This document shows, piece by piece, positions 1 to 36,052 of a stretch of DNA of 36,052 nucleotides; positions within the stretch are counted from its first letter, which is position 1; every line of letters begins with the position of its first letter. Where the stretch lies: IMG/VR virus record IMGVR_UViG_3300042199_000067, one strand, 5' to 3'. Position numbers and translations under genes: made by a program. This stretch comes from a virus. The notes under the pieces were generated by a model. It searched no databases. It saw only the letters and a program-made list of their open reading frames with translations, and was not told where the DNA came from.

Positions 1-127
1 AAAAAAAAAATAAAAAATATTTTTTTCTAGAAAATAATAAAAAAACCTAAAATACGCTGGCTTTCTACGCTACTGTTCTACGCTAGTTAAATAGTAGATG
101 AAGCCAAAAATACATGATATTGTTACT
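1..127. repeat. Terminal overlap: identical copy of 35926-36052 (genome closes into a 35,925-bp circle or is terminally redundant)
   Basis: Base-by-base comparison: position 1 aligns to 35926 (10 A then T at 11, versus T at 35936). Identity runs to the window end (…gatattgttact). Confidence 0.95.
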
Positions 128-373
128 GAAAATCTGTTACCAAATCGTAAAAACTTAAATGTAAGTGTGGGTTTTGACAGAAAAAACAAGATTTGGCGTT
201 TTATTGGCTATAGTTGCGGTAAATGTGGGCAATCATTAAAGACAGTATATGTAGCCAAAAAGCATATATGTCAAGCAACTGTGTTACGCCGTCAGTTGCG
301 TAATGATATTGAAGAACTGAACATAAAAACAGTTGATGGTAGAGTATGGAAGCCAATTGTCTTAGACAATTGA
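98..373 (+). CDS. Small basic protein with a C2HC zinc-ribbon-like signature, function unknown
   Basis: ATG at 98 lies immediately after the right arm of the ori-like palindrome. 91 aa. CGKC (C-x2-C) is followed 12 residues later by HIC (H-x-C). Confidence 0.6.
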   Translation: MKPKIHDIVTENLLPNRKNLNVSVGFDRKNKIWRFIGYSCGKCGQSLKTVYVAKKHICQATVLRRQLRNDIEELNIKTVDGRVWKPIVLDN

Positions 374-405: not shown

Positions 406-1377
406 ATGAAACGAATATTAGTATGTGGGGCAGGTGGATTTATAGGACACCACTTAGTTAAAAAACTTGTTAATCAAGGTCATCATGTTATAGGCGCAGA
501 CCTTTATCATCCAGCCTATGAAAAAACATTAGCACATGAGTTCTATGTTGTGGACTTGCGTGACCAACGAACGGTTAAACATTTGTTAAGCCAAGAGATT
601 GACGAAATCTATCAATTAGCCGCTGACATGGGCGGCGCCGGCTATATCTTTACAGGTGACAACGATGCCGATATCATGCATAATAGTTGTCAAATCAACT
701 TAAACATACTTGACAGTATGGTAGATAGAGGCATCAAGAATGTATTCTATACCAGTAGTGCTTGCATGTATCCAAGACATAATCAGACTGATTACTTGAC
801 GCCAAATCTATGTGAAGATAGTGCTTACCCTGCAGACCCAGATAGTGAGTATGGTTGGGAGAAACTGTTTTCCGAAAGACTTTACATGACTTATGCACGG
901 AACTATAATCTAAACTGTCGTATTGCCAGACTGCATAATGTTTATGGGCCATTAGGCGCCTACGATAATGGGCGTGAGAAAAGCCCAGCAGCCATTTGCC
1001 GCAAAGTTATCAATAGTAAACAAGTTGTAGACATATGGGGCAATGGTCGTCAAACTAGAAGTTTTTTGTATATTGACGAATGCATCACTGGCATACTTAA
1101 GATTATGGAATCTGACTATGACAAACCATTAAATTTGGGTAGCGACCGTATGATATCTATTAATGAACTTGTACATATGGTTGCAGATATTGGTAACAAG
1201 AGTGTAGTCATTAACAATGTGCCAGGACCAATTGGCGTCAATGGCCGTAACAGCGACAATACATTGATTAAGAGTGTATTGGGTTGGACTCCAGATAACA
1301 ACTTAGAATATGGATTAAAACAAACATACGATTGGATCAAGAGCCGCATTGATAATGGATTGACAGATATCAAATGA
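406..1377 (+). CDS. gme: GDP-mannose 3,5-epimerase family SDR (GDP-D-mannose to GDP-L-galactose/GDP-L-gulose)
   Basis: The tracked ORF starts at 346, but ATG 406 follows AAAGGAACAGAA and opens with the Rossmann motif ILVCGAGGFIGHHL. The protein is collinear, from memory, with plant GME. Shared motifs: LAADMGG, SSACMYP (catalytic Cys), EYGWEKL (Y-x3-K), GREKSPAAICRK, WGNGRQTRSFLYIDEC, LGSDRMISINEL, PGPIGVNGRNSDN, LGWTP. Confidence 0.9.
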   Translation: MKRILVCGAGGFIGHHLVKKLVNQGHHVIGADLYHPAYEKTLAHEFYVVDLRDQRTVKHLLSQEIDEIYQLAADMGGAGYIFTGDNDADIMHNSCQINLNILDSMVDRGIKNVFYTSSACMYPRHNQTDYLTPNLCEDSAYPADPDSEYGWEKLFSERLYMTYARNYNLNCRIARLHNVYGPLGAYDNGREKSPAAICRKVINSKQVVDIWGNGRQTRSFLYIDECITGILKIMESDYDKPLNLGSDRMISINELVHMVADIGNKSVVINNVPGPIGVNGRNSDNTLIKSVLGWTPDNNLEYGLKQTYDWIKSRIDNGLTDIK

Positions 1378-2156
1378 AATACCTTGTAGTCAAAGGATGG
1401 GAAGGTTTTAGTGATAGACTACAATGTTTAAGTTATGCAGTAACCTGTAGTCTACGCTATAATCGCACATTGTATGTAGATTGGACAGACGATATCTGGG
1501 GTACAAGTTTCTACGATTACTTCTACTTTGAGGATCTACATTACATAGACGATTATCGTAAGATACCTAAAACTAGCACGGTACATCCACACTTTTGGAA
1601 TCACAAACTCATGCTACCTGCACATACTTGGGTCTATGACATGAAGGATCAACTTGTCTTTGACATAAGTAAATGTAACGAATTTACTGATGTATGGGTA
1701 CAGCCTGGCATTGGCTATCGTGAATACAACATGCCATTGCTTACTAAACATTTGCGTGTAAGACCAGACATTGTTGAACAAATTTATACTGAACCTATCA
1801 TAGATTTACCCGTCGTACATCTTCGTGGAACTGATAGGACATTCACAGATGAAGATTGGGCACGGTGTAGGCAACTTGCGCCTGTAGCGTATGTGTTGAG
1901 CGATGACACTAAATTAATAGAACGATGGATGAATGAAAGTCCAGCCAGCATAGTCATCAGCAAGCCAAAACATGATGTTACGCATTTCAGCACAAACATA
2001 GACAAACATCAGTATAACCTAGATTTATTGCGTGAGTTTTTTATATTGGCTAGTGCAAAAGACGCACACGCATTAAATGTTGATAGTCTGTATTTTAAGA
2101 TGAGCAGGATAATCGGTACTTGCCCATACTACAAGTCAGTAATCAACAAGTCATAA
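1374..2156 (+). CDS. Putative GDP-sugar-dependent glycosyltransferase of the fucosyltransferase-like superfamily (GT11/GT23/O-FucT type)
   Basis: ATGA start/stop overlap with gme implies translational coupling. The N-terminal KGWEGFSDRLQCLSYAV resembles the GGLGNQMFQYA box of GT11. VVHLRGTDR resembles the H-x-R-R-x-D motif of alpha1,2/alpha1,6 fucosyltransferases. Size is 260 aa. This is a motif-level call only. Confidence 0.5.
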   Translation: MKYLVVKGWEGFSDRLQCLSYAVTCSLRYNRTLYVDWTDDIWGTSFYDYFYFEDLHYIDDYRKIPKTSTVHPHFWNHKLMLPAHTWVYDMKDQLVFDISKCNEFTDVWVQPGIGYREYNMPLLTKHLRVRPDIVEQIYTEPIIDLPVVHLRGTDRTFTDEDWARCRQLAPVAYVLSDDTKLIERWMNESPASIVISKPKHDVTHFSTNIDKHQYNLDLLREFFILASAKDAHALNVDSLYFKMSRIIGTCPYYKSVINKS

Positions 2157-2190: not shown

Positions 2191-4380
2191 ATGCCACAAC
2201 AGATTAAGTCAAGTTACAATGAAGTCATTGTACCCTTTCAAAAGATGAGTTTCACGCCGGATGTACCACCCAGTGCACTGGGCCCGAATGAATACAACGA
2301 TGGTGTCAATGTAGAAACAGATGTTCGTGGTATTCGCAGTATGGCTGGCGACCAATATATTCTTCCTGCATTGCCAGGTATGCCAGCGACAAATGGCAGC
2401 CCTACATTCGTTACAGGTGGCTTCCGTGGCGATGGTAAGTTTTATTTTATTGTTGCAACAACATCAACTAACCCACTAGATCCTGGACAATGGTGGGCTA
2501 GCGATGGCGGTAGTTGGCAAAACATTACTCCAAATACAGGCGACTTCACACAATACAATCAAGCAACAAACATTACAGAAGCATGGAGTGGCACAGTTCC
2601 ATTCTTTAATGACGAAAGCAATCCACCAATGTTCTGGCCCGAGCCTACGATTGCAAATCCTAGTCCAGTCATGATTATGTACAGTAATCAAGTACCATTA
2701 GATATTGATACTATCACAACATTAACAGCAACAACAAAACAAATTAAAGTTGCTGGTCAAGCGACTGAACCATTTCAAACAGGTGATTTCATACTAATTA
2801 ATAATGTTAATCCAAGGTATTATAATGGGGGACCGTTTGAAGTTATAAGTTGTACGACAACATACGATGTTATAGACCAAGCATGGTATACTTACATTGT
2901 ATATGAAAGCACGGTAACTGACGCTTATCTAACTGGCGGCACAGTTAGTCCAGCATACGCATGGAACTATACACCAGAATGGAAAAGCGTTTATGCAAAG
3001 TTTATGCGTATCTATAACACACCTAATGTGGGTTCAATACTTGTAGCAGGTAATTTAACTGTTACACCTAAAGTAAGTTTTACTGGCGACACAACAACTG
3101 GCAGTAATGTTATTGTTACAACCAGTGCAGTTAGTAATTGGGTTGGCGCAGAAGTGTTTAGTTTTGACTTCCCCGCAGGCACTACAGTCACCGCAGTAAC
3201 GCCGGGCGTAAGCATACAAGTTAGTACAAACAGCACAGGAACAAACACAGCAGTACCTATTGATTTAGGATTAGCCGATACTGAAGTATACCCTGTCTCA
3301 GTACGATGGAGTCAAGCGTTTGGTCTTAATCAAGCACCATTTACCTGGGAACCTACTGTAGTCAATATTGCTAACGAATTAGAAGTGCCATTGCGTGGTG
3401 GAGCATTAGATGCATTTCCCTGTAATGGTCAGTTCTTCTTGTGTAGTTATTGGGACACAGTTGTATTCAGTCCCATCAACTTCAGTACAACATCAACGCC
3501 TATACTTGGTGTAAGAATGTTTAACCAAGGTCGTGGTATACTGTCAAGCAACTGTTGGGCTAATACCGATAAGTTAGTTTATGGTATTGACGCAAGAGAT
3601 GTATGGGTCTTTGATGGTCAAGACTTTCGTGGCTTAGGTAATCAAAGAGTAAAGAATTGGTTGTTTGACCAATTGGACCCACAATACTACGATAGAGTTT
3701 TTATGGAAGTCAATACGCAAAGAGCGCAAGTTGAGATTTATTATCCATCAAAAGATAAACCAATTAACGATGGCGTACCAAACAAAATGATATCATACAG
3801 ATATGATTTAGATTGTTGGAATGCACCCAGAGATGTTACAAATGCTACATTTAGTTGCGAAAGCCCTATTTGGGAATATGATGGCTCAAACTGGGTTGCA
3901 GCCCCAGGCAGTCGCACAGTTGTTTACGCACAAGGCGGCAATAGTGGTTCACAATTAATACAAAAAGACCAAGGTTATAGTCGTGCTAATGGTGATCCAA
4001 TAACAAGCCAATTTAGACGAGACAATATAAAACTGCTAAAAGATTATAGTGGTAAACTTATGGTTCATCGTATACTGCCTGAAGTCGTGAACTTGGGCGC
4101 TGATCCATTCAGTACAGACGATGAACGACCTGTTGATCCTGCGACAAGTACAAACTTAGGTAATGTTACAGTTACACTAGAAGGTGCTGGAAGTGTAGGC
4201 GCTGTGCCAACAAGTAAGCCTAGCATCACTATGGCAACCAACACAGAAAGTCCATGGTGCCAGTTCAATCAAAATGCATATCGTGTCAACAACATTGAGA
4301 TTAGTAATACTAGCAACAATAGTGTTTGGATGTGTACCGCAACTACATGGCAGTTCACACAAGTTGAGGATGACAGATAA
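2191..4380 (+). CDS. Large virion structural protein (tail/nozzle or receptor-binding complex component), family not recognised
   Basis: 729-aa ORF after AGGAAAAATAAAG. Composition is T/S/N/W/G-rich and beta-type with no low-complexity repeats. TAATG overlap with the next structural ORF. Confidence 0.6.
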   Translation: MPQQIKSSYNEVIVPFQKMSFTPDVPPSALGPNEYNDGVNVETDVRGIRSMAGDQYILPALPGMPATNGSPTFVTGGFRGDGKFYFIVATTSTNPLDPGQWWASDGGSWQNITPNTGDFTQYNQATNITEAWSGTVPFFNDESNPPMFWPEPTIANPSPVMIMYSNQVPLDIDTITTLTATTKQIKVAGQATEPFQTGDFILINNVNPRYYNGGPFEVISCTTTYDVIDQAWYTYIVYESTVTDAYLTGGTVSPAYAWNYTPEWKSVYAKFMRIYNTPNVGSILVAGNLTVTPKVSFTGDTTTGSNVIVTTSAVSNWVGAEVFSFDFPAGTTVTAVTPGVSIQVSTNSTGTNTAVPIDLGLADTEVYPVSVRWSQAFGLNQAPFTWEPTVVNIANELEVPLRGGALDAFPCNGQFFLCSYWDTVVFSPINFSTTSTPILGVRMFNQGRGILSSNCWANTDKLVYGIDARDVWVFDGQDFRGLGNQRVKNWLFDQLDPQYYDRVFMEVNTQRAQVEIYYPSKDKPINDGVPNKMISYRYDLDCWNAPRDVTNATFSCESPIWEYDGSNWVAAPGSRTVVYAQGGNSGSQLIQKDQGYSRANGDPITSQFRRDNIKLLKDYSGKLMVHRILPEVVNLGADPFSTDDERPVDPATSTNLGNVTVTLEGAGSVGAVPTSKPSITMATNTESPWCQFNQNAYRVNNIEISNTSNNSVWMCTATTWQFTQVEDDR

Positions 4381-5647: not shown

Positions 5648-9973
<4,326 letters not shown>

Positions 9974-13879: not shown

Positions 13880-14311
13880 ATGAATACACTAGAACAACTA
13901 ACACAAACATTCAATGACAACTTTGTTGCATACTATCGCAGCCATGTTGCACATGTAAACATTTTAGGTCGCAACTTTTACAGCGACCATAAACTATTAC
14001 AAAAAATCTATGAGGATCTACAAGACCAAATAGATAAAATCGCAGAACTAATCAGAACATTAGATGGCTTTATGCCTGAAGAAATACAAGATGTATTAAA
14101 TCGTAGCAATATACCTACTACTATGATATTTGGCGATAGTGATACATTATTAACAGAGGTAAAAAATGATTTGGAATCGCTTAAAGGAGAATATGAAACT
14201 CTTATGGCTACTGCTGAAAGCGAAGGTCACGAAGAAATAGCAAACTACGCACAGGACAGAATACTTGCCCTTGCTAAATTTGTATGGATGTTAGATTCAA
14301 CTTTAAGTTAA
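13880..14311 (+). CDS. dps: Dps / ferritin-like four-helix-bundle protein
   Basis: AAGGAAAAG RBS, 143 aa. HVAHVNILGRNFYSDHKLLQKIYEDLQDQIDKIAELIRTLDG matches the Dps helix A/B pattern (H…G.NF…H..…E/D…D.IAERI..LGG). The C-terminal part, GHEEIANYAQDRILALAKFVWMLDSTL, matches the last Dps helix. Confidence 0.75.
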   Translation: MNTLEQLTQTFNDNFVAYYRSHVAHVNILGRNFYSDHKLLQKIYEDLQDQIDKIAELIRTLDGFMPEEIQDVLNRSNIPTTMIFGDSDTLLTEVKNDLESLKGEYETLMATAESEGHEEIANYAQDRILALAKFVWMLDSTLS

Positions 14312-20021: not shown

Positions 20022-20135
20022 ATGGGAAAAGGTAGCAATCCAAGACCATTTGATATCCCTAAAGATAAGTTTAGAGACAACTGGGAACAAACATTTGGTA
20101 AGAAGAAAAAAGAAGAACCAACTGATAAGAAATGA
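20022..20135 (+). CDS. 37-aa mini-protein MGKGSNPRPFDIPKDKFRDNWEQTFGKKKKEEPTDKK
   Basis: Strong AAGGAGA RBS 5 nt upstream. Hand translated. ATGA overlap with the next gene. The GKG-x-x-PRP … W..(I/T)FG pattern is recalled as a common short phage ORF. Confidence 0.6.
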   Translation: MGKGSNPRPFDIPKDKFRDNWEQTFGKKKKEEPTDKK

Positions 20136-20986
20136 AATGTATAGCAACATGGAGTTTTAGTCCATGGTTAAATGATAAGGGAAGTAGTGTATGGCATAGC
20201 ACAACAGATATGTTGGCATGTAGTGTTGCCAGCATTGAAAGTTTCAATAAAATATATGGTCGTCCAACATTATACACAGATACATTAGGTCGCAATGTTT
20301 TTAGTCAATTGACAAAAAATTGTGACTTTGTAGTTGAATATGATGGCATAGATAGATTAGTGCCAAATACATTATGGGCTTACAGCAAGATATTGACATA
20401 TGAAAAGCAAAAAGAACCTTATCTACATTTTGACTTAGATTTCATAGTACACAAAGATTTAGAGTTAGTTGATTGTGATATTGCGTTTCAAAGTTTTGAA
20501 CATATCGGTGGCAGTTTAGAACGAGTTTACAATCTGGGAAGATTATACAAATATTATAAATTGCCCAGTGTTTTTCCTAGAACTGAACATGAATTGGATA
20601 GTATACAATGTCCTAATCTAGGATTTATGTACATGAACGATATGAAGTTAAATCGTGAATATACAGACACAGCAATCAAGTTGGTAGAAAATAATCGTGA
20701 ATTATTCAAAACTGACAAGAAATTACATATTTGTAGTGTTGAACAACAGACATTGGGATGTATATTGAAATACTACAAAAAGATAAAAACAAAGGTCTTA
20801 TTGAATAATCATAAGACAGATTATCCATTTAACGATTATTTCACTCATTTTATCGGTGGATGGAAGCAAAAGAAGTATCCTGGCGTTATTGAGTTACAAG
20901 ACAAGAATTATGGCAGTTACAAAACGAACGAACTATGTGATGTTGCTAAGTTTTTAGATAACTTAAAGTACTCGCTACGACACTAA
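20132..20986 (+). CDS. Accessory protein with DxD-type motif (possible GT-A-like glycosyltransferase), inserted between terL and portal
   Basis: 284 aa. LWAYSKILTYEKQKEPYLHFDLDFIV has an acidic D-x-D after a hydrophobic strand. The position is typical for a moron. The fold is not verifiable by eye. Confidence 0.3.
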   Translation: MKCIATWSFSPWLNDKGSSVWHSTTDMLACSVASIESFNKIYGRPTLYTDTLGRNVFSQLTKNCDFVVEYDGIDRLVPNTLWAYSKILTYEKQKEPYLHFDLDFIVHKDLELVDCDIAFQSFEHIGGSLERVYNLGRLYKYYKLPSVFPRTEHELDSIQCPNLGFMYMNDMKLNREYTDTAIKLVENNRELFKTDKKLHICSVEQQTLGCILKYYKKIKTKVLLNNHKTDYPFNDYFTHFIGGWKQKKYPGVIELQDKNYGSYKTNELCDVAKFLDNLKYSLRH

Positions 20987-27944: not shown

Positions 27945-30900
27945 ATGCCAGTAACTAATACAAGCAATTACACAACATTATACAGCACTACTGCTGGCGC
28001 TGTTGCACCACAACAACCATATGGTAATGCAAATGTTGAAGCATTCTTAAATGTTGGCACAGATGGTGGCAACACAGTACAAAACATTATTGCAAATGGA
28101 ACTATTACTGCTAATGGTAATATTGAAGCAAATGGGTATTTTGTTGGTGATGGTGGATATTTAAGCAATGTTACCGCAAATACAGCAAATACCGCAAATA
28201 CAGCAAATACCGCAAACTATGCTAACTTTTCAGGTAATTTAGTTAATGGAACAAGCAATGTAAGCATTCCTGTTGCTAATGGCAATATTACATTTGGAGT
28301 AAATGGCAATGCTAATGTTATGGTCGTTTCTGTTGACCAAGTTGCAATTGGTGCGAATGCAGGGCAAACTAATCAATTACTTAAATCTATAGCGGTTGGC
28401 GAAAAGGCTGGACAAACTAATCAAGGTAATATTTATGGTTATGCTATTGCCATTGGACATAATGCCGGTAGTAATAATCAAACAGGATTTAGTGTTGCAA
28501 TTGGTAACTCAGCGGCTAGTAATAATCAAGGCTACGCAGGGGTTGCTATAGGTAAAGAAACGGGTAGAAATGACCAAGGCAACTATAGTGTTGCTATTGG
28601 TGGTGGTGCCGGCTTTACTAGTCAGGGTTCAAATAGTATTGCTGTTGGTAAAGACGCAGGATTCATGAGTCAAGCAAATAACAGTATTATATTAAATGCT
28701 ACTGGATCCGTACTAAACCAAACAACTGCAAATACATTTACAGTTAAGCCTGTGCGTAATGCCAATACAGCAAACATGTTGTTTTATAACAACACTACAG
28801 GTGAAATAACATATGACGCATTAATTGCTCCTAATTCAGTAGCAAATTCTAACTTCGCAAATTTCGCTGGCAATGTTACTAATTCAGCACAGCCAAATAT
28901 TACAAGTGTTGGTACATTAGTCAATGTTACAGTTACTGGTAATATTACTAGTACCACTGGCATATTTAATGGAGATGGAAGCGGTCTAAGCAATATTAAT
29001 GTTAGCAACATTACAGGAAATGCTAACTTTGCAAACTTTGCTGGTAATGTAACTGTAAGTAACCAACCTAATATTACAAGTCTTGGTAATTTATTATCAT
29101 TGCAGGTAGGTAATACTAGTAATTTAACTTTATTTAATTTTAATCCAAATACAGCCGCCATACCTGGCACAACAAGTAATGTAAGTTTATTAAAAACATC
29201 ATCAAATTATACTTTTAACGAAGGCAGTTATGTTACCAATTGGGATTACAACATTGATAACATAACTTGGAATCAATTATATTATGGTAATGATTTGAAT
29301 ACTGGTAATACCATTTATGCTGGTAAACAAGCAATGAGTGGTTATGGGGCTCCTGGTAGTAATGTCGTTCCCGGCACTTATACAGTTCAAGTTTTTGAAA
29401 CTTCAAGTGATTTAACCAATCCCAACACAGGTACAGGAACCAGTTTAAGTGTTGGTCAAGGTGGATTGACTGCGATTGTTGGATCACAAACAAGTGCTCC
29501 TGCAATAGGTGCATTCATATATGGTAACACTACGCAAAGTCAAGCAAGCGCAATTCGTATCAATCGTAGACGAGGTAATGGCGATGTTCGCAGTAATGTG
29601 GCAGCAAGTGATTATTTAGGTAACATTGAATGGCGTGCTGGTGGTAGTGCTACTGGTTCATTAAACAGCAGAATTGCTACATTTGGCGCTAAAGTAGACA
29701 GCAGTTATGGTGGTCCAGGTAATGTCATGCCAATTGGCTTTGAAATGGATGTAGTGAATAGTAGTAATGCTTTCATCGCACATAGTTTCTATGCAAATGG
29801 TAATGTAAACTTTAGCAATAATGTCAATGCCGCTAGTTTTAGCGGTAATGGTGGCAACTTAAGCAATATTGCAGTTGGTAATATTACTGGTTTAGGTAAT
29901 ATTGCTACAATTAATTTAGACGGCAATGCAAGTAACATTCTTTATGGTAATGGCGTATTTGCAACGCCAGCGACTCAATCTATACTCGCTAATGGCACAA
30001 GTAATGTCAGTATACCATCTGCAAATGGTAACATAAATTTTAGTGCAAATAATAACAGTAATTTAGTTCAAATTAGTGCTGATACTAATGCACTAGTGAA
30101 TGTTTTCCCATTAATTACTCAAACAAATGCATTGCGTTTTAATAGTATAGGTAGTCCGCAACAAGATTGCCGTATTACATTTGCTAGATATGAAACAAAT
30201 GTTGCAAATTCAACAAGTGTACAACCTAATGCTAATGTGGGAACATTGATATTTTTTGCACACAATGGTACTGGATTAAGCACAACATTACCTGCAATAA
30301 TTCGTGCTAAAGTAGATGCGGCGTATACTGCTAATACAGCAAATATACCATATGGCTTACAATTTATAGTTGCACAAACTACACAAACAGGTACTGCAAA
30401 TACGGGTTTTTCACATAATTTTTGGAGTAATGGTAATGTATCATTTGCTAAAACAGTTAATGCAGCCAATATAATTCTTTCAGGTAATGCTAATATAACT
30501 GGTACTGCAAATATAACTGGTAATAGTAATGTTGGTAATTTAGGTGCAAGTGGATTAATTACCGCTACAGGCAATATTACTGGTGGCAATTTATTAACAA
30601 ATGGATTACTTGATGTTAAAGGTAATGTAACATTAGGTAATGCAAGTAGTAATTCATTTGTGACAATTACCGGTGATAAAACAGTTAATAGTTCTGTAAG
30701 TTTAGTTGACACACAATTTGCAGTTGCATTAAGTAATGTTAATACTAGTGGTGGATTCAGCCCATTTAGATTTAACCAGTACACTTCATTAAGTAGTCAA
30801 GTAGGGGCAATGTTTTTTCAGCGTGCCCGAGGAAACAGTTTTGCTAATCAAAGCCCAGTACTTGCAGGTGACGAAGTTGCAGTTTTTAACTTTTTAGTTA

Positions 30901-31415
30901 ATAGTAATAATGTTGCTACAAGTCTTAACCAAATATCAAGTTCAGTTACATACAATGATAATGCAGGTAATATAGGCGGCAGATTAACATTGGATGCTAG
31001 TGGAGTTGGCACGACAGGTCAAAGTTTAAGTAAAATTGAATTGACTTCTGCTAATATCAATGTTAGTGGTAACATTAATATAACTGGTAATGCTATTGTT
31101 AACTCAAACACAACTATCTATAGTAATGGTTTGGTTAATGCTACACAGTTCAGCACAGCCAATACAAACATTTATGCTAACGGTGCGGTTAACACTAATG
31201 GCGAACTTACAGCAGACAATGTTAAGATTGATACTAATGGTTTCATGAAACTTAGTAGTTATACGGCGGCGGCATTAACAGCAATCACAGGACAGATTGG
31301 TTGGATGGCTGCTGTAAGCGATAGTGCTAGTGGTGGTAATCCAAATGGCATGATTGCGTTCTGGGATACAACAAACGCTCGTTGGAGTTATGTCCACGAC
31401 AATAGTGCGGTATAA
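27945..31415 (+). CDS. Tail fibre (1156 aa, Asn/Thr/Ser/Gly-rich) with YadA-head-like repeats and internal duplications
   Basis: (S/Y)(V/I)AIG-x-x-AG-x-x-NQG units x6 lie at aa about 130-255 (nt about 28335-28710). The ANFANFAGNVT…QPNITS(V/L)G module occurs twice (about 28856 and about 29030). NGTSNVSIP-x-ANGNI-x-F occurs twice. The C-terminal end is GQIGWMAAVSDSASGGNPNGMIAFWDTTNARWSY. Confidence 0.75.
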   Translation: MPVTNTSNYTTLYSTTAGAVAPQQPYGNANVEAFLNVGTDGGNTVQNIIANGTITANGNIEANGYFVGDGGYLSNVTANTANTANTANTANYANFSGNLVNGTSNVSIPVANGNITFGVNGNANVMVVSVDQVAIGANAGQTNQLLKSIAVGEKAGQTNQGNIYGYAIAIGHNAGSNNQTGFSVAIGNSAASNNQGYAGVAIGKETGRNDQGNYSVAIGGGAGFTSQGSNSIAVGKDAGFMSQANNSIILNATGSVLNQTTANTFTVKPVRNANTANMLFYNNTTGEITYDALIAPNSVANSNFANFAGNVTNSAQPNITSVGTLVNVTVTGNITSTTGIFNGDGSGLSNINVSNITGNANFANFAGNVTVSNQPNITSLGNLLSLQVGNTSNLTLFNFNPNTAAIPGTTSNVSLLKTSSNYTFNEGSYVTNWDYNIDNITWNQLYYGNDLNTGNTIYAGKQAMSGYGAPGSNVVPGTYTVQVFETSSDLTNPNTGTGTSLSVGQGGLTAIVGSQTSAPAIGAFIYGNTTQSQASAIRINRRRGNGDVRSNVAASDYLGNIEWRAGGSATGSLNSRIATFGAKVDSSYGGPGNVMPIGFEMDVVNSSNAFIAHSFYANGNVNFSNNVNAASFSGNGGNLSNIAVGNITGLGNIATINLDGNASNILYGNGVFATPATQSILANGTSNVSIPSANGNINFSANNNSNLVQISADTNALVNVFPLITQTNALRFNSIGSPQQDCRITFARYETNVANSTSVQPNANVGTLIFFAHNGTGLSTTLPAIIRAKVDAAYTANTANIPYGLQFIVAQTTQTGTANTGFSHNFWSNGNVSFAKTVNAANIILSGNANITGTANITGNSNVGNLGASGLITATGNITGGNLLTNGLLDVKGNVTLGNASSNSFVTITGDKTVNSSVSLVDTQFAVALSNVNTSGGFSPFRFNQYTSLSSQVGAMFFQRARGNSFANQSPVLAGDEVAVFNFLVNSNNVATSLNQISSSVTYNDNAGNIGGRLTLDASGVGTTGQSLSKIELTSANINVSGNINITGNAIVNSNTTIYSNGLVNATQFSTANTNIYANGAVNTNGELTADNVKIDTNGFMKLSSYTAAALTAITGQIGWMAAVSDSASGGNPNGMIAFWDTTNARWSYVHDNSAV
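28173..28217 (+). repeat. 18-nt tandem repeat x2.5 (accgcaaatacagcaaat) encoding (TAN)n
   Basis: Read directly. Protein: NTANTANTANTANYAN. Confidence 0.9.
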
Positions 31416-31972: not shown

Positions 31973-32278
31973 ATGACAAACTTAAATCATGAAATTTTAG
32001 TAGAACAGATAATAAATCCAACTACTAAAAAAATTAATTTAATTGATATAATTGAAGATATGGATAGAAAGGTTCTTGAGATTTCAAGACAAACTAAGCC
32101 AACTAAAATAGCGAAAGCATACGCAGAAGAAGAAGAACAAAAATTATTGTTTTTGCAAGATATAATTAAAAGATGTGTTAGGTCAGCGTACGATGATGTA
32201 GAAGCATATGAAAAAACTACTCATTGGTCAACATTAAAAAAACATTACGACATTGAAGTAATCGTAAAAGAAAAATAA
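31973..32278 (+). CDS. Early protein, unknown function (101 aa)
   Basis: AAGGA RBS with 6-nt spacing. Charged and helical. Followed by a terminator. Confidence 0.65.
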   Translation: MTNLNHEILVEQIINPTTKKINLIDIIEDMDRKVLEISRQTKPTKIAKAYAEEEEQKLLFLQDIIKRCVRSAYDDVEAYEKTTHWSTLKKHYDIEVIVKEK

Positions 32279-35868: not shown

Positions 35869-36010
35869 TAGCGTAGAAGTCCAGCGTAGAACACCAGCGT
35901 AAATCGTGTTTTTTTAGCGAAATCAAAAAAAAAAATAAAAAATATTTTTTTCTAGAAAATAATAAAAAAACCTAAAATACGCTGGCTTTCTACGCTACTG
36001 TTCTACGCTA
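35869..36010. promoter_or_regulatory. Candidate origin of replication: three AGCGTA(GAA) boxes, a 76-bp A/T-tract spacer, then three inverted boxes
   Basis: The left arm is tagcgtagaaGTCCagcgtagaaCACcagcgta (35869-35901). The right arm, tacgctggCTTtctacgctACTGttctacgcta (35978-36010), is its imperfect reverse complement. The spacer contains A11, T7 and A7 runs. It starts 3 nt after the helicase stop. The right arm is duplicated at 53-85. Confidence 0.5.
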
Positions 36011-36052
36011 GTTAAATAGTAGATGAAGCCAAAAATACATGATATTGTTACT
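35926..36052. repeat. Terminal overlap, second copy of 1-127
   Basis: Exact identity with 1-127. Confidence 0.95.

What the first reader, a model, noticed from the sequence alone, without database searches (positions are those of the whole stretch)
406..2156. Coupled GDP-mannose 3,5-epimerase + fucosyltransferase-like gene pair: candidate phage-encoded L-galactose/L-gulose glycosylation cassette
Seen in the sequence:
- ORF 406-1377 carries every hallmark I remember of GME: GAGGFIG, LAADMGG, SSAC catalytic Cys, Y-x3-K, GREK-PAA-CRK, QTRSF-IDEC, GRNSDN.
- It overlaps (ATGA) a 260-aa ORF with a GFSDRLQ N-terminal box and an HLRGTDR motif, reminiscent of GT11/GT23/O-FucT enzymes.

Established knowledge:
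- Those transferase families use GDP-beta-L-fucose.
- GDP-L-galactose, the GME product, is its 6-hydroxy analogue. It can substitute for GDP-fucose in plants (L-Gal replaces L-Fuc in Arabidopsis mur1 xyloglucan).
- Virion O-glycosylation by phage-encoded transferases has been reported in some mycobacteriophages.

Inference: the pair forms a minimal make-the-donor, transfer-the-sugar module fed by host GDP-mannose. It heads the operon that continues into Thr/Ser-rich structural ORFs, including about 400 residues of Thr-Gly/Ser-Gly at 8219-9415. This suggests O-glycosylation of virion fibres, or remodelling of the host surface. I am not aware of a phage system built on GME, but I cannot search to confirm this.
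Basis: partly seen in the sequence, partly recalled or inferred. Interest (0 to 1): 0.85.

Follow-up and report, generated by a model that had tools for sequence, protein, structure and literature searches.

The report
Phage L-galactose sugar-tagging gene pair
A small freshwater phage carries an inserted two-gene cassette: one enzyme probably turns host GDP-mannose into GDP-L-galactose, and a NodZ/FUT8-like transferase probably attaches that sugar, perhaps to Thr-Gly repeat proteins; similar gene sets are already annotated in cyanophages, so the chemistry is not new.

Summary
ORF 406-1377 is a GDP-mannose 3,5-epimerase (GME). It matches solved GMEs at E about 1e-94 against 4.5e-27 for the next SDR, and the Ser/Cys/Tyr/Lys/Lys catalytic set is intact. 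ORF 1374-2156 overlaps it by ATGA. It belongs to an unnamed family whose profile hits NodZ (E 2e-9). Its AlphaFold model (pLDDT 93) matches only GDP-fucose fucosyltransferases.

The window is a complete circular phage genome of about 35.9 kb. The pair is a 1.8-kb accessory insertion, absent from 55 related contigs. Pairing of GME with a fucosyltransferase-type enzyme recurs in unrelated viral contigs in other gene orders, which supports donor-transferase coupling.

The novelty claim fails. More than 50 phage records encode GME homologues, and cyanophage S-SCSM1 was published with GME plus a "NodZ".

Two things are new. The genome also holds a GT8-like transferase (DUF6734, 20132-20986). Across bacteria, phages and giant viruses, this transferase family lies next to (Thr-Gly)n repeat proteins. 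That points to the 1441-aa TG-repeat protein (5648-9973) as acceptor.

Donor and acceptor are both inferred, not shown.

The parts
406..1377 (+). GDP-mannose 3,5-epimerase (GME) homologue, 323 aa. [quoted passage not shown]
   Evidence: phmmer against PDB: 8sg0 at 7.6e-94 and AtGME 2c59 at 2.7e-92, against 4.5e-27 for the next SDR. Pfam Epimerase PF01370 at 3.6e-44. The GAGGFIG NAD site, SSAC (AtGME S143/C145), YGWEK (Y174/K178) and GREK (K217) all align; positions are.
1374..2156 (+). NodZ/FUT8-like glycosyltransferase of the GT23-type fucosyltransferase superfamily, 260 aa, with no membrane anchor. It is the predicted L-galactosyl (or L-fucosyl) transferase.
   Evidence: The single sequence has no Pfam, NCBIfam, PHROG or PDB hit. 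The 71-sequence profile hits NodZ 2hhc at E 2.3e-9, and FUT8 aligns HLRGTDR to HVRRTDK and SDD to TDD. AlphaFold model pLDDT 93, pTM 0.90. Foldseek PDB: NodZ 4.7e-9 (TM 0.63), then AtFUT1, FUT8, POFUT2, POFUT1. The best BFVD hit is the S-SCSM1 'fucosyltransferase' at 2.2e-9.
1374..1377 (+). ATGA start/stop overlap that joins the two genes (translational coupling is inferred).
   Evidence: Sequence read. The two genes abut in the same way in the relatives L001 (94% identical) and L006/L007 (transferase 62%, GME 72% identical).
5648..9973 (+). 1441-aa protein of the structural gene block. It has a Pro-rich N-terminal part, an Ala/Glu/Gln coiled-coil-like part and a Thr-Gly/Ser-Gly tract of about 400 residues (8219-9415). 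It is the candidate acceptor of the glycosylation.
   Evidence: ORF; composition. The equivalent protein in L006, which also carries the pair, has about 285 TSG-rich residues. Homologues of the transferase lie next to (TG)n proteins in bacteria, other phages and giant viruses. Its role as acceptor is an inference.
20132..20986 (+). DUF6734 protein, 284 aa: a GT-A fold, GT8-like retaining glycosyltransferase with an invariant HxDxD motif. It is a possible partner enzyme that adds a primer sugar.
   Evidence: Pfam DUF6734 at 6.5e-25. Invariant H99, D101 and D103 in a 15-sequence alignment. AlphaFold pLDDT 93. Foldseek PDB: LgtC 6.5e-7, then LARGE1, glycogenin, XXYLT1 and the ABO transferases. 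It lies between the terminase and portal genes, the slot where other phages carry f234 plus the NodZ-like transferase. The partnership is an inference.
98..373 (+). 91-aa ORF that marks the left edge of the insertion. It is not part of the cassette.
   Evidence: In relatives that lack the pair, its homologue ends about 90-110 bp before the homologue of ORF 2191-4380 (L085, L098, L119, L125).
2191..4380 (+). 729-aa virion structural protein that marks the right edge of the insertion.
   Evidence: PHROG 3287 'virion structural protein' at 2.6e-20. 55 IMG/VR relatives share it at 52-85% identity and none has the GME or the transferase.

Best explanation
The pair is an accessory glycosylation cassette of about 1.8 kb. 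It was inserted between the replication module and the structural module of a complete, circular podovirus-like phage genome of about 35.9 kb.

Step 1 is well supported by sequence. The GME homologue converts host GDP-D-mannose into GDP-beta-L-galactose, with GDP-L-gulose as a side product.

Step 2: the fold and motifs are shown, the donor is inferred. The translationally coupled, soluble NodZ/FUT8-like transferase binds this GDP-L-hexose through its HxRxxD and DD motifs and transfers the sugar. The genome has no GDP-fucose pathway, so GME is the only donor-making enzyme the phage supplies.

Step 3 is inferred from genomic context only. The most likely acceptor is the Thr-Gly/Ser-Gly tract of the 1441-aa structural-block protein (5648-9973). 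The sugar would go either straight onto Thr/Ser or onto a primer sugar laid down by the phage's second transferase, the GT8-like DUF6734 protein. The result would be an O-glycosylated phage protein made in the cytoplasm before assembly.
For: GME identity. PDB hits of E about 1e-94 are restricted to GMEs, and the catalytic S/C/Y/K/K set is intact.

Transferase identity. The profile hits NodZ at 2.3e-9, with FUT8 motif alignment. A high-confidence model matches only GDP-Fuc fucosyltransferases.

Coupling.
- ATGA overlap.
- The pair is kept at 62-94% identity.
- GME also lies next to the transferase in reversed or different order in L024, L032 and L046, and 6.4 kb away in L022.
- A different O-FucT-like gene sits beside a GME in L206.
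- S-SCSM1 has a GME and a distant homologue of this transferase in one cluster.
- GT23 FUT8 accepts GME-made GDP-L-Gal (PMC8787198).

No other donor pathway. Pfam or PHROG scans of 27 + strand ORFs, including every + strand ORF of at least 100 aa except 31973-32278, found no GMD or GDP-fucose synthase.

Acceptor.
- The window and L006 both carry the pair and a TG tract of about 300 aa.
- TG-repeat proteins lie 17-145 bp from homologues of the transferase in giant-virus contigs L063 and L075, in proteobacterial MAGs L260 and L261, and in Fimbriiglobus L265. They lie within 1-4 kb in Oryzomonas, L264, L266 and the L041 phage group.
- 5 of 11 lineages are within 250 bp, P about 4e-6 under uniform spacing over 10 kb.
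- The window's structural proteins find no match at E 1e-3 anywhere in the L041 or L047 loci, so the two TG proteins share no detectable similarity outside the repeats.
- Fusions of the family to TPR domains (P0100, P0141) fit a protein acceptor.
Against: - No biochemical data exist for any member of this transferase family or for any phage GME.
- The closest solved relatives (NodZ, FUT8, AtFUT1) act on glycans, not on peptides.
- 66 of 72 IMG/VR loci that carry the transferase have no GME within the flanks. Most of them also have no TG-repeat ORF.
- 120 IMG/VR stretches with at least 10 TG units contain no homologue of the transferase. These stretches are irregular pieces of contigs.
- L111, a relative without the pair, still has a TSG-rich tract of 280 aa, so TG repeats do not need this enzyme.
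- Apart from the window lineage, the loci linked to GME and the loci linked to TG repeats do not overlap.
- Whether the 1441-aa protein is in the virion is not shown.
Confidence: 0.55

Rival explanations
1. The cassette remodels the host surface. It makes GDP-L-galactose and adds L-Gal to a host envelope glycan (LPS or O-antigen, capsule, or S-layer glycan) during infection. This could block superinfection or stop progeny from sticking to cell debris. Phage proteins would not be the target.
For: The nearest solved relatives NodZ, FUT8 and AtFUT1 all glycosylate sugars. [quoted passage not shown] The pair is a dispensable accessory insertion. Fusions of the family to GT2 and to sugar-type methyltransferases point to glycan building.
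Against: ORF2 has no membrane anchor or signal sequence. No flippase, polymerase or lipid-carrier gene was found in the phage ORFs scanned (27 + strand ORFs, including all but one of those of at least 100 aa). The repeated close adjacency of the family to TG-repeat protein genes in three domains of hosts is not explained by this reading.
Confidence: 0.25
2. The two enzymes are not coupled through the donor. The transferase uses host GDP-L-fucose like its relatives. The GME serves another purpose, for example draining GDP-mannose away from host envelope synthesis or feeding a different transferase such as the DUF6734 enzyme.
For: Most homologues of the transferase have no GME nearby. The superfamily's natural donor is GDP-L-fucose (established knowledge; one search hits). 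GT8-type enzymes such as DUF6734 are a separate transferase present in the genome.
Against: The ATGA overlap and the conserved adjacency in several gene orders and lineages. GT8-like enzymes normally use UDP-sugars, not GDP-sugars (established knowledge). A phage with no GDP-fucose genes would depend on the host making GDP-fucose.
Confidence: 0.12
3. The cassette is a recently acquired passenger of no use to the phage, or it is decaying.
For: It is absent from 55 relatives.
Against: Both ORFs are intact, with all catalytic and family-invariant residues. They are kept as a pair at 62-72% protein identity in L006. Together with DUF6734 they take about 7% of a 36-kb genome.
Confidence: 0.03

Closest known systems
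Cyanophage S-SCSM1 'cell wall synthesis and modification' cluster (Wang et al. 2022, PMC9602691) and GME homologues in other T4-like cyanophages (S-SM2, P-TIM68, S-SSM7 and others)
   Same: A phage-encoded GME, about 50% identical to ORF1, lies in one cluster with fucosyltransferase-type enzymes. ORF134 'NodZ' is a distant homologue of ORF2: hhalign E 2.5e-4 over 227 columns with the GGFGNR, HLRATD and LSDD motifs aligned, and it is the best BFVD structural hit.
   Different: There the GME sits in a sugar gene cluster of about 15 genes that also holds GMD and GDP-fucose synthase, in a 229-kb myovirus, 8 kb from the NodZ-like gene. Here a 36-kb podovirus-like phage has a minimal, overlapping two-gene unit with no GDP-fucose pathway. 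The genes directly after the GME in S-SM2, P-TIM68 and S-SCSM1 are unrelated to ORF2. Neither system has been tested.
NodZ and FUT8 (CAZy GT23, alpha-1,6-fucosyltransferases)
   Same: The fold and the GDP-sugar binding motifs are shared: the N-terminal G-x-G-D/C box, HxRxxD, DD, and a C-terminal Ser. FUT8 accepts GDP-L-Gal.
   Different: Identity is only 15-17%. ORF2 does not reach the Pfam NodZ model even at E 0.1. The second Arg of HxRR is Gly. The known acceptors are GlcNAc of chitooligosaccharides or N-glycans, while context here points to TG-repeat proteins.
[quoted passage not shown]
   Same: Full-length alignment, catalytic residues and NAD site.
   Different: ORF1 lacks the plant N-terminal extension of about 28 residues: query residue 3 aligns to chain residue 31. 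It is encoded by a phage and feeds a transferase rather than ascorbate synthesis.
Mycobacteriophage virion glycosylation (Freeman et al. 2023, cited in PMC12582341)
   Same: Phage-encoded transferases are proposed or shown to O-glycosylate the phage's own structural proteins in the cytoplasm.
   Different: As far as I recall (not checked here), those systems use other transferase families and host donors and have no donor-making GME. Modification here is only predicted.
Protein O-fucosyltransferases POFUT1/POFUT2 and TPR-bearing SPINDLY-type enzymes
   Same: They belong to the same structural superfamily (one search hits at 9e-4 and 5e-3). They transfer onto Ser/Thr of proteins. Fusions of the family to TPR domains recall TPR-bearing protein glycosyltransferases (my knowledge).
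   Different: POFUTs need folded EGF or TSR modules, whereas the proposed acceptor here is a disordered dipeptide repeat. The similarity is weaker than to NodZ.

Membership tests
GDP-mannose 3,5-epimerase (GME, EC 5.1.3.18; extended SDR) | Extended-SDR fold with an N-terminal GxxGxxG NAD-binding motif | tested here: met
   GAGGFIG at residues 8-14. Pfam Epimerase at 3.6e-44 and GDP_Man_Dehyd at 9.4e-29.
GDP-mannose 3,5-epimerase (GME, EC 5.1.3.18; extended SDR) | Catalytic Ser/Tyr/Lys plus the epimerisation acid/base pair Cys145 and Lys217 (AtGME numbering; roles from my memory of Major et al. 2005) | tested here: met
   SSAC, YGWEK and GREK align column for column with AtGME SSAC, YGLEK and GREK. 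Their positions in ORF1 are 117, 149 and 189.
GDP-mannose 3,5-epimerase (GME, EC 5.1.3.18; extended SDR) | Closer to characterised GMEs than to any other nucleotide-sugar SDR | tested here: met
   GME chains score E 7.6e-94 to 1.9e-91. The next hits are a UDP-glucose 4-epimerase at 4.5e-27 and GDP-fucose synthase at 1.9e-21. NCBIfam has no model that passes its cut-off.
GDP-mannose 3,5-epimerase (GME, EC 5.1.3.18; extended SDR) | [quoted passage not shown] | not testable with these tools
   This needs an enzyme assay.
GT23 / NodZ-type fucosyltransferases (superfamily with GT11, GT37, GT65, GT68) | The fucosyltransferase-type fold with a C-terminal Rossmann domain that binds the GDP-sugar | tested here: met
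   The model has pLDDT 93. Foldseek gives NodZ at E 4.7e-9, TM 0.63, and ranks 1-36 are all GDP-Fuc fucosyltransferases.
GT23 / NodZ-type fucosyltransferases (superfamily with GT11, GT37, GT65, GT68) | Motif I HxRRxD, whose Arg binds the donor phosphate (FUT8 R365; my knowledge) | tested here: inconclusive
   H149-L-R151-G-T-D154-R aligns to FUT8 HVRRTDK. H, the first R and D are invariant in the family. The second Arg is Gly152.
GT23 / NodZ-type fucosyltransferases (superfamily with GT11, GT37, GT65, GT68) | Motif II acidic pair (FUT8 TDD) and the motif III Ser | tested here: met
   The invariant D177 and D178 align to FUT8 ATDD. The invariant S238 aligns to the Ser of NodZ 'TSAF' and of S-SCSM1 'SSF', but only in weak local alignments.
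GT23 / NodZ-type fucosyltransferases (superfamily with GT11, GT37, GT65, GT68) | Passes the curated Pfam NodZ model (PF05830) | tested here: not met
   ORF2 gets no Pfam hit at E up to 0.1. Two of the ten fusion proteins scanned pass the 28.3-bit cut-off over the N-terminal box, P0139 and P0193, and P0236 also exceeds it at 29.5 bits. ORF2 is therefore a distinct family inside the superfamily, not a NodZ member.
GT23 / NodZ-type fucosyltransferases (superfamily with GT11, GT37, GT65, GT68) | Uses GDP-beta-L-fucose and makes an alpha-1,6 link to GlcNAc | not testable with these tools
   Donor and acceptor need assays. Context suggests GDP-L-Gal as donor and TG-repeat proteins as acceptor.
Phage virion-protein glycosylation systems | Phage-encoded transferase(s) together with a modified structural protein | tested here: inconclusive
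   Two transferases are present and a TG-rich protein lies in the structural gene block. Modification and virion location are untested.
GT8-like retaining GT-A transferases (for the DUF6734 ORF) | GT-A fold with a DxD metal and nucleotide-sugar site | tested here: met
   Invariant H99xD101xD103. Foldseek gives LgtC at 6.5e-7, then LARGE1, glycogenin and XXYLT1. There is no sequence-level PDB hit.

The most novel reading that the evidence does not exclude
The unnamed NodZ-like family (1383 cluster representatives at E up to 1e-3) is a dedicated O-glycosyltransferase for (Thr-Gly)n / (Ser-Gly)n repeat proteins, shared by bacteria, tailed phages and giant viruses. In bacteria it is often joined by a sulfotransferase. 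In this phage lineage it has been teamed with a GME, so that a virion-associated TG-repeat protein is decorated with L-galactose. That would be a sugar and a substrate class not yet described for phage particles.
Probability: 0.35. Interest if true: 0.8.

Novelty: new variant of a known kind. Interest (0 to 1): 0.6.

Why it matters
If the mechanism holds, this is the smallest self-contained example of a phage making its own unusual sugar donor and using it: two overlapping genes feeding on one common host metabolite. That would make it easy to test and easy to transplant for L-galactosylation in the laboratory.

The wider point is the link between this uncharacterised transferase family and Thr-Gly repeat proteins in bacteria, phages and giant viruses. 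It offers a concrete, testable function for a family of more than a thousand sequence clusters, and for the widespread but unexplained TG dipeptide repeats. It would also extend virion glycosylation, so far shown mainly in mycobacteriophages, to aquatic phages.

The gene content itself (GME plus fucosyltransferase-like genes in phages) is already in the literature, so the enzymology alone would not surprise a specialist.

Tried and rejected
- Single-sequence searches of ORF2 found nothing useful: Pfam, NCBIfam, PHROGs, PDB phmmer, and tblastn against 50,697 phage records. Only the family profile and the structure model worked.
- I tested whether the genes just downstream of cyanophage GMEs are hidden homologues of ORF2 (S-SM2 'putative transferase', a P-TIM68 hypothetical, S-SCSM1 'coatomer'). 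They are not: hhalign probability is 1.1% or less.
- Reverse test: 120 IMG/VR stretches holding (ACNGGN)x10 contain no homologue of the transferase and only one GME, in L206. The stretches are arbitrary pieces of contigs; L177 is from the same contig as L041 but misses its transferase gene. The test is therefore weak. It still shows that TG repeats are common without this enzyme.
- Some TG runs on the opposite strand are really (Pro-Val)n in the coding frame, as in L206. I therefore checked frames and ORF context for each locus I cite. The 625-aa antisense ORF 7591-9468 in the window is such a mirror image.
- The promoter and terminator scan of 1-2400 was at background level. The only feature is a weak hairpin at 354-372, so there is no evidence for or against a separate transcript.
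- The f234 family has no significant match in the window (best E 1.5).
- Literature searches for Thr-Gly repeat glycosylation returned nothing.
- A DNA-modification role was considered and dropped. No hypermodified-base genes were seen, and no GDP-sugar-dependent DNA glycosyltransferase is known to me.
Full report
**1. The observation**

The two ORFs are real and lie where stated. ORF 406-1377 (+) encodes 323 aa from the ATG at 406, which follows an AAGGA-type ribosome-binding site. A longer reading from the ATG at 346 overlaps the preceding gene and is less likely. ORF 1374-2156 (+) encodes 260 aa. Its ATG overlaps the stop codon of ORF1 as ATGA at 1374-1377. The stretch 8219-9415 encodes 399 residues, of which 354 are Thr, Gly or Ser, inside a 1441-aa ORF.

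**2. ORF1 is a GDP-mannose 3,5-epimerase**

Against all PDB sequences, the five best hits are GDP-mannose 3,5-epimerases, at E 7.6e-94 to 1.9e-91 over the whole length. The next SDR is a UDP-glucose 4-epimerase at 4.5e-27, and GDP-fucose synthase scores 1.9e-21. In that alignment SSAC, YGWEK and GREK match AtGME SSAC, YGLEK and GREK. After correcting for the two extra N-terminal residues of the PDB chain, these carry S143, C145, Y174, K178 and K217. The catalytic roles of those residues are from my memory of the AtGME structural work. The GAGGFIG NAD motif is at residue 8. Pfam and PHROGs give only the generic epimerase families, and NCBIfam has no GME model that passes its cut-off.

**3. ORF2 is a NodZ/FUT8-like transferase of an unnamed family**

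Alone, ORF2 matches nothing in Pfam, NCBIfam, PHROGs, PDB or 50,697 phage records. It has 84 homologues in the large protein collection, all unnamed. An alignment of 71 of them has 16 invariant columns, including H149, R151, G152, D154, D177, D178 and S238.

The profile hits NodZ at E 2.3e-9. It also aligns, weakly but in register, with FUT8: HLRGTDR to HVRRTDK and SDD to TDD. The AlphaFold2 model is confident, with pLDDT 93.1 and pTM 0.90. Its 36 best PDB matches are all GDP-fucose-dependent fucosyltransferases: NodZ at 4.7e-9 (TM 0.63), then AtFUT1, FUT8, POFUT2 and POFUT1. Among predicted viral structures, the best match is the 'fucosyltransferase' of cyanophage S-SCSM1 at 2.2e-9, followed by giant-virus transferases.

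An exhaustive profile search finds 1383 cluster representatives at E up to 1e-3 and 508 at 1e-10. ORF2 does not reach the curated Pfam NodZ model, and only a few distant members do. It is therefore a separate family within the fucosyltransferase superfamily, not a NodZ in the strict sense.

**4. Genome context**

The window ends in an exact 127-bp copy of its start. It is therefore a circularly closed assembly of a complete genome of about 35.9 kb. All large genes are on the + strand:
- SU10-type major capsid protein and portal, and the large terminase.
- A Prim-Pol and a DUF5906 primase/helicase at the window end. These lie directly upstream of the pair once the circle is closed, as in the 94%-identical contig L001.

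Pfam or PHROG scans covered 27 + strand ORFs, including every one of at least 100 aa except 31973-32278. They show no GDP-mannose dehydratase, no GDP-fucose synthase and no lipid-linked glycan machinery. There is a second transferase. The DUF6734 ORF (20132-20986), between terminase and portal, has an invariant HxDxD motif. Its model (pLDDT 93) matches GT8- and GT6-type retaining GT-A enzymes such as LgtC, LARGE1, glycogenin and XXYLT1. A 55%-identical DUF6734 protein has a longest contig of 36,665 bp, the length of the IMG/VR contig behind L095, a relative without the pair. If it is that contig, this enzyme is more widespread in the phage group than the pair.

**5. The pair is an accessory insertion**

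Fifty-five IMG/VR contigs share the 729-aa structural protein at 52-85% identity, together with the following genes in the same order. None of them has a GME or the transferase. In several, the homologue of the 91-aa ORF (98-373) ends about 90-110 bp before the 729-aa gene. The pair is kept, genes abutting, in L001 and in L006/L007 (GME 72%, transferase 62% identical). So 'heads the structural operon' is correct as a position. The position is a module junction into which a 1.8-kb cassette was inserted.

**6. Are the two enzymes coupled?**

Several lines say yes:
- The ATGA overlap.
- Among 72 IMG/VR loci with a homologue of the transferase, six have a GME within 10 kb, in four arrangements that differ from the window. 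These are transferase then GME in L024 and L032 (gaps of about 40 bp), GME-f234-transferase in L046, and GME 6.4 kb upstream in L022/L023/L042.
- In L206 a different O-FucT-like gene (PF10250, below its cut-off) directly precedes a GME.
- In S-SCSM1, GME and a distant homologue of ORF2 (hhalign E 2.5e-4, 227 aligned columns) share one sugar cluster.
- The GME review records that mouse FUT8 and two plant fucosyltransferases transfer L-galactose from GME-made GDP-L-Gal (PMC8787198).

Against this, 66 of the 72 loci have no GME in the flanks. Most family members must therefore use a donor supplied by the host.

**7. The acceptor**

This part is inference, but the context signal was unexpected. 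The window and L006, the two pair-bearing genomes in which the region is assembled, both have about 300 residues of TG/SG repeat in the large structural-block protein.

Independently, homologues of the transferase lie beside TG-repeat proteins in many settings:
- Giant-virus contigs: L063 (membrane-anchored transferase, then 66 bp on a membrane protein with (TG)30) and L075 (a 710-aa protein with about 290 TG residues, then 17 bp on the transferase).
- Proteobacterial MAGs L260 and L261: a (TG)70 protein, then the transferase. L260 adds a sulfotransferase.
- Oryzomonas: a giant protein with a TG/SG run, a sulfotransferase, then the transferase.
- A Fimbriiglobus MAG: a 1275-aa TG-linker protein, divergent, 72 bp away.
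- A betaproteobacterial beta-glucan utilisation locus: a lipoprotein with a (TG)15 linker, 1.5 kb away.
- The L041 phage group: a 1391-aa TG protein 4 kb away. The window's structural proteins find no match at E 1e-3 in the L041 or L047 loci, so the two TG proteins share no detectable similarity outside the repeats.

Six of the nine bacterial loci found among 185,579 species genomes have such a protein nearby. In 5 of 11 lineages the gap is 250 bp or less, P about 4e-6 if spacing were uniform over 10 kb. L260 and L261 may count as one lineage. Fusions of the family to TPR domains fit protein substrates. Fusions to GT2, to methyltransferases and to the f234 family fit stepwise glycan building.

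The caveats are real:
- Most viral loci with the transferase show no TG protein in the flanks.
- TG repeats are common without the enzyme.
- L111, a relative without the pair, has a TSG-rich tract of 280 aa.
- Outside the window lineage, the GME-linked and TG-linked loci are different loci.
- I had no proper genome-wide background.

**8. Most likely mechanism and rivals**

The most likely chain is this. Host GDP-mannose is converted by the GME to GDP-L-galactose. The soluble NodZ-like enzyme transfers L-Gal in the cytoplasm. The best candidate acceptor is the TG/SG tract of the 1441-aa protein, either directly or on a primer sugar from the GT8-like enzyme.

I give the whole chain 0.55. The enzyme assignments are near 0.9, the donor coupling about 0.65 and the acceptor about 0.4.

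The main rival is remodelling of a host surface glycan (0.25). That is how the S-SCSM1 authors read their cluster, and it fits the glycan acceptors of the closest solved enzymes. Uncoupled functions (0.12) and a useless passenger (0.03) are less likely.

**9. Comparison with what is known, and novelty**

tblastn finds GME homologues at 47.5-53.8% identity in 55 phage records, mostly T4-like cyanophages. The 2022 S-SCSM1 paper names the GME, the GDP-fucose genes and three fucosyltransferases including a 'NodZ'. A NodZ-like gene was also noted in cyanophage S-SRM01. None of this has been tested biochemically.

Four things are new here:
- The minimal, overlapping two-gene form in a small podovirus-like genome without a GDP-fucose pathway.
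- Its clean status as an insertion.
- The second, GT8-like transferase.
- The cross-domain association of the transferase family with Thr-Gly repeat proteins, for which I found no literature.

I class the finding as a new variant of a known kind, with moderate interest (0.6). There is a more novel reading, a dedicated TG-repeat O-glycosyltransferase family fed in this phage with L-galactose. I hold it at about 0.35 probability.

Noticed in passing
window 1-127 and 35926-36052: The first 127 bases are repeated exactly at the end of the window. The window is therefore a circularly closed assembly of a complete phage genome of about 35.9 kb. The junction matches relative L001 at 98% identity.
   Followed up: yes
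window 20132-20986 (+): The DUF6734 protein between terminase and portal is a GT-A fold, GT8-like glycosyltransferase with an invariant HxDxD motif. Its best structural matches are LgtC, LARGE1, glycogenin and XXYLT1. Pfam lists the family as of unknown function.
   Followed up: yes
window 13880-14311 (+): A ferritin/Dps-like protein (Pfam Ferritin at 2.5e-15) lies just after the block of large structural and ejection-type proteins. This is an unusual gene for a small phage.
   Followed up: no
window 7591-9468 (-) and 8682-9422 (both strands): Long antisense or off-frame ORFs reading (Pro-Val)n, (Glu-Gln)n and so on are mirror images of the TG-repeat DNA and are not genes. The same ambiguity affects TG and PV calls in other loci, for example L206.
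   Followed up: yes
window 5648-8200 (+): The N-terminal 850 residues of the 1441-aa protein hold a PEPVYTP-type proline-rich repeat and about 200 residues of Ala/Glu/Gln-rich, coiled-coil-like sequence. In relatives the protein appears to be roughly half this size (gene spacing), and only its C-terminal 190 residues are conserved.
   Followed up: partly
L260 2-3308; L004/L262 1-10897: Bacterial three-gene sets: a TG-repeat surface-type protein, the NodZ-like transferase, and a PF13469 sulfotransferase. They occur in a proteobacterial MAG and in Oryzomonas. From memory, this recalls the fucosylation-plus-sulfation decoration of Nod factors.
   Followed up: partly
L063 1670-3576; L075 7804-10918: In giant-virus contigs, a homologue of the transferase (membrane-anchored in L063) lies 17-66 bp from a membrane or secreted protein with 30 to about 150 Thr-Gly units.
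   Followed up: partly
L024 9297-9995; L046 4890-5588; L022 9315-10001; protein P0236: A family of 229-234 aa with no Pfam match (starts ...SVFGxNPRY..., contains RDADSR) sits beside the NodZ-like transferase in 10 viral loci, including those with a GME. It appears to be fused to the transferase in P0236, judging by eye from that protein's N-terminal sequence. It is probably another transferase.
   Followed up: partly
L206 1640-4427: A viral contig carries an O-FucT-like gene (PF10250, below cut-off), a GME (51% identical to ORF1) and a further 261-aa SDR in a row, downstream of a PV- or TG-repeat ORF.
   Followed up: partly
proteins P0100, P0141, P0193, P0231, P0103, P0021, P0168: Members of the transferase family are fused to TPR repeats, to FkbM-type or SAM methyltransferases, and to a GT2 domain. 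P0141 also has a C-terminal region that looks heptosyltransferase-like by eye; this was not tested.
   Followed up: partly
L002/L003 and L264: In a betaproteobacterial MAG the homologue of the transferase sits inside a beta-glucan utilisation locus (GH16, GH17, GH30, GH81, GH1 and an ABC sugar transporter). A lipoprotein there carries a (TG)15 linker.
   Followed up: partly
L038 679-2940: The large terminase of one phage that carries the transferase is interrupted by an intein (Intein_splicing and Hint domains).
   Followed up: no
window 27945-31415 (+): A 1156-aa ORF after the head genes has no Pfam or PHROG match. It is presumably a tail or fibre protein.
   Followed up: no
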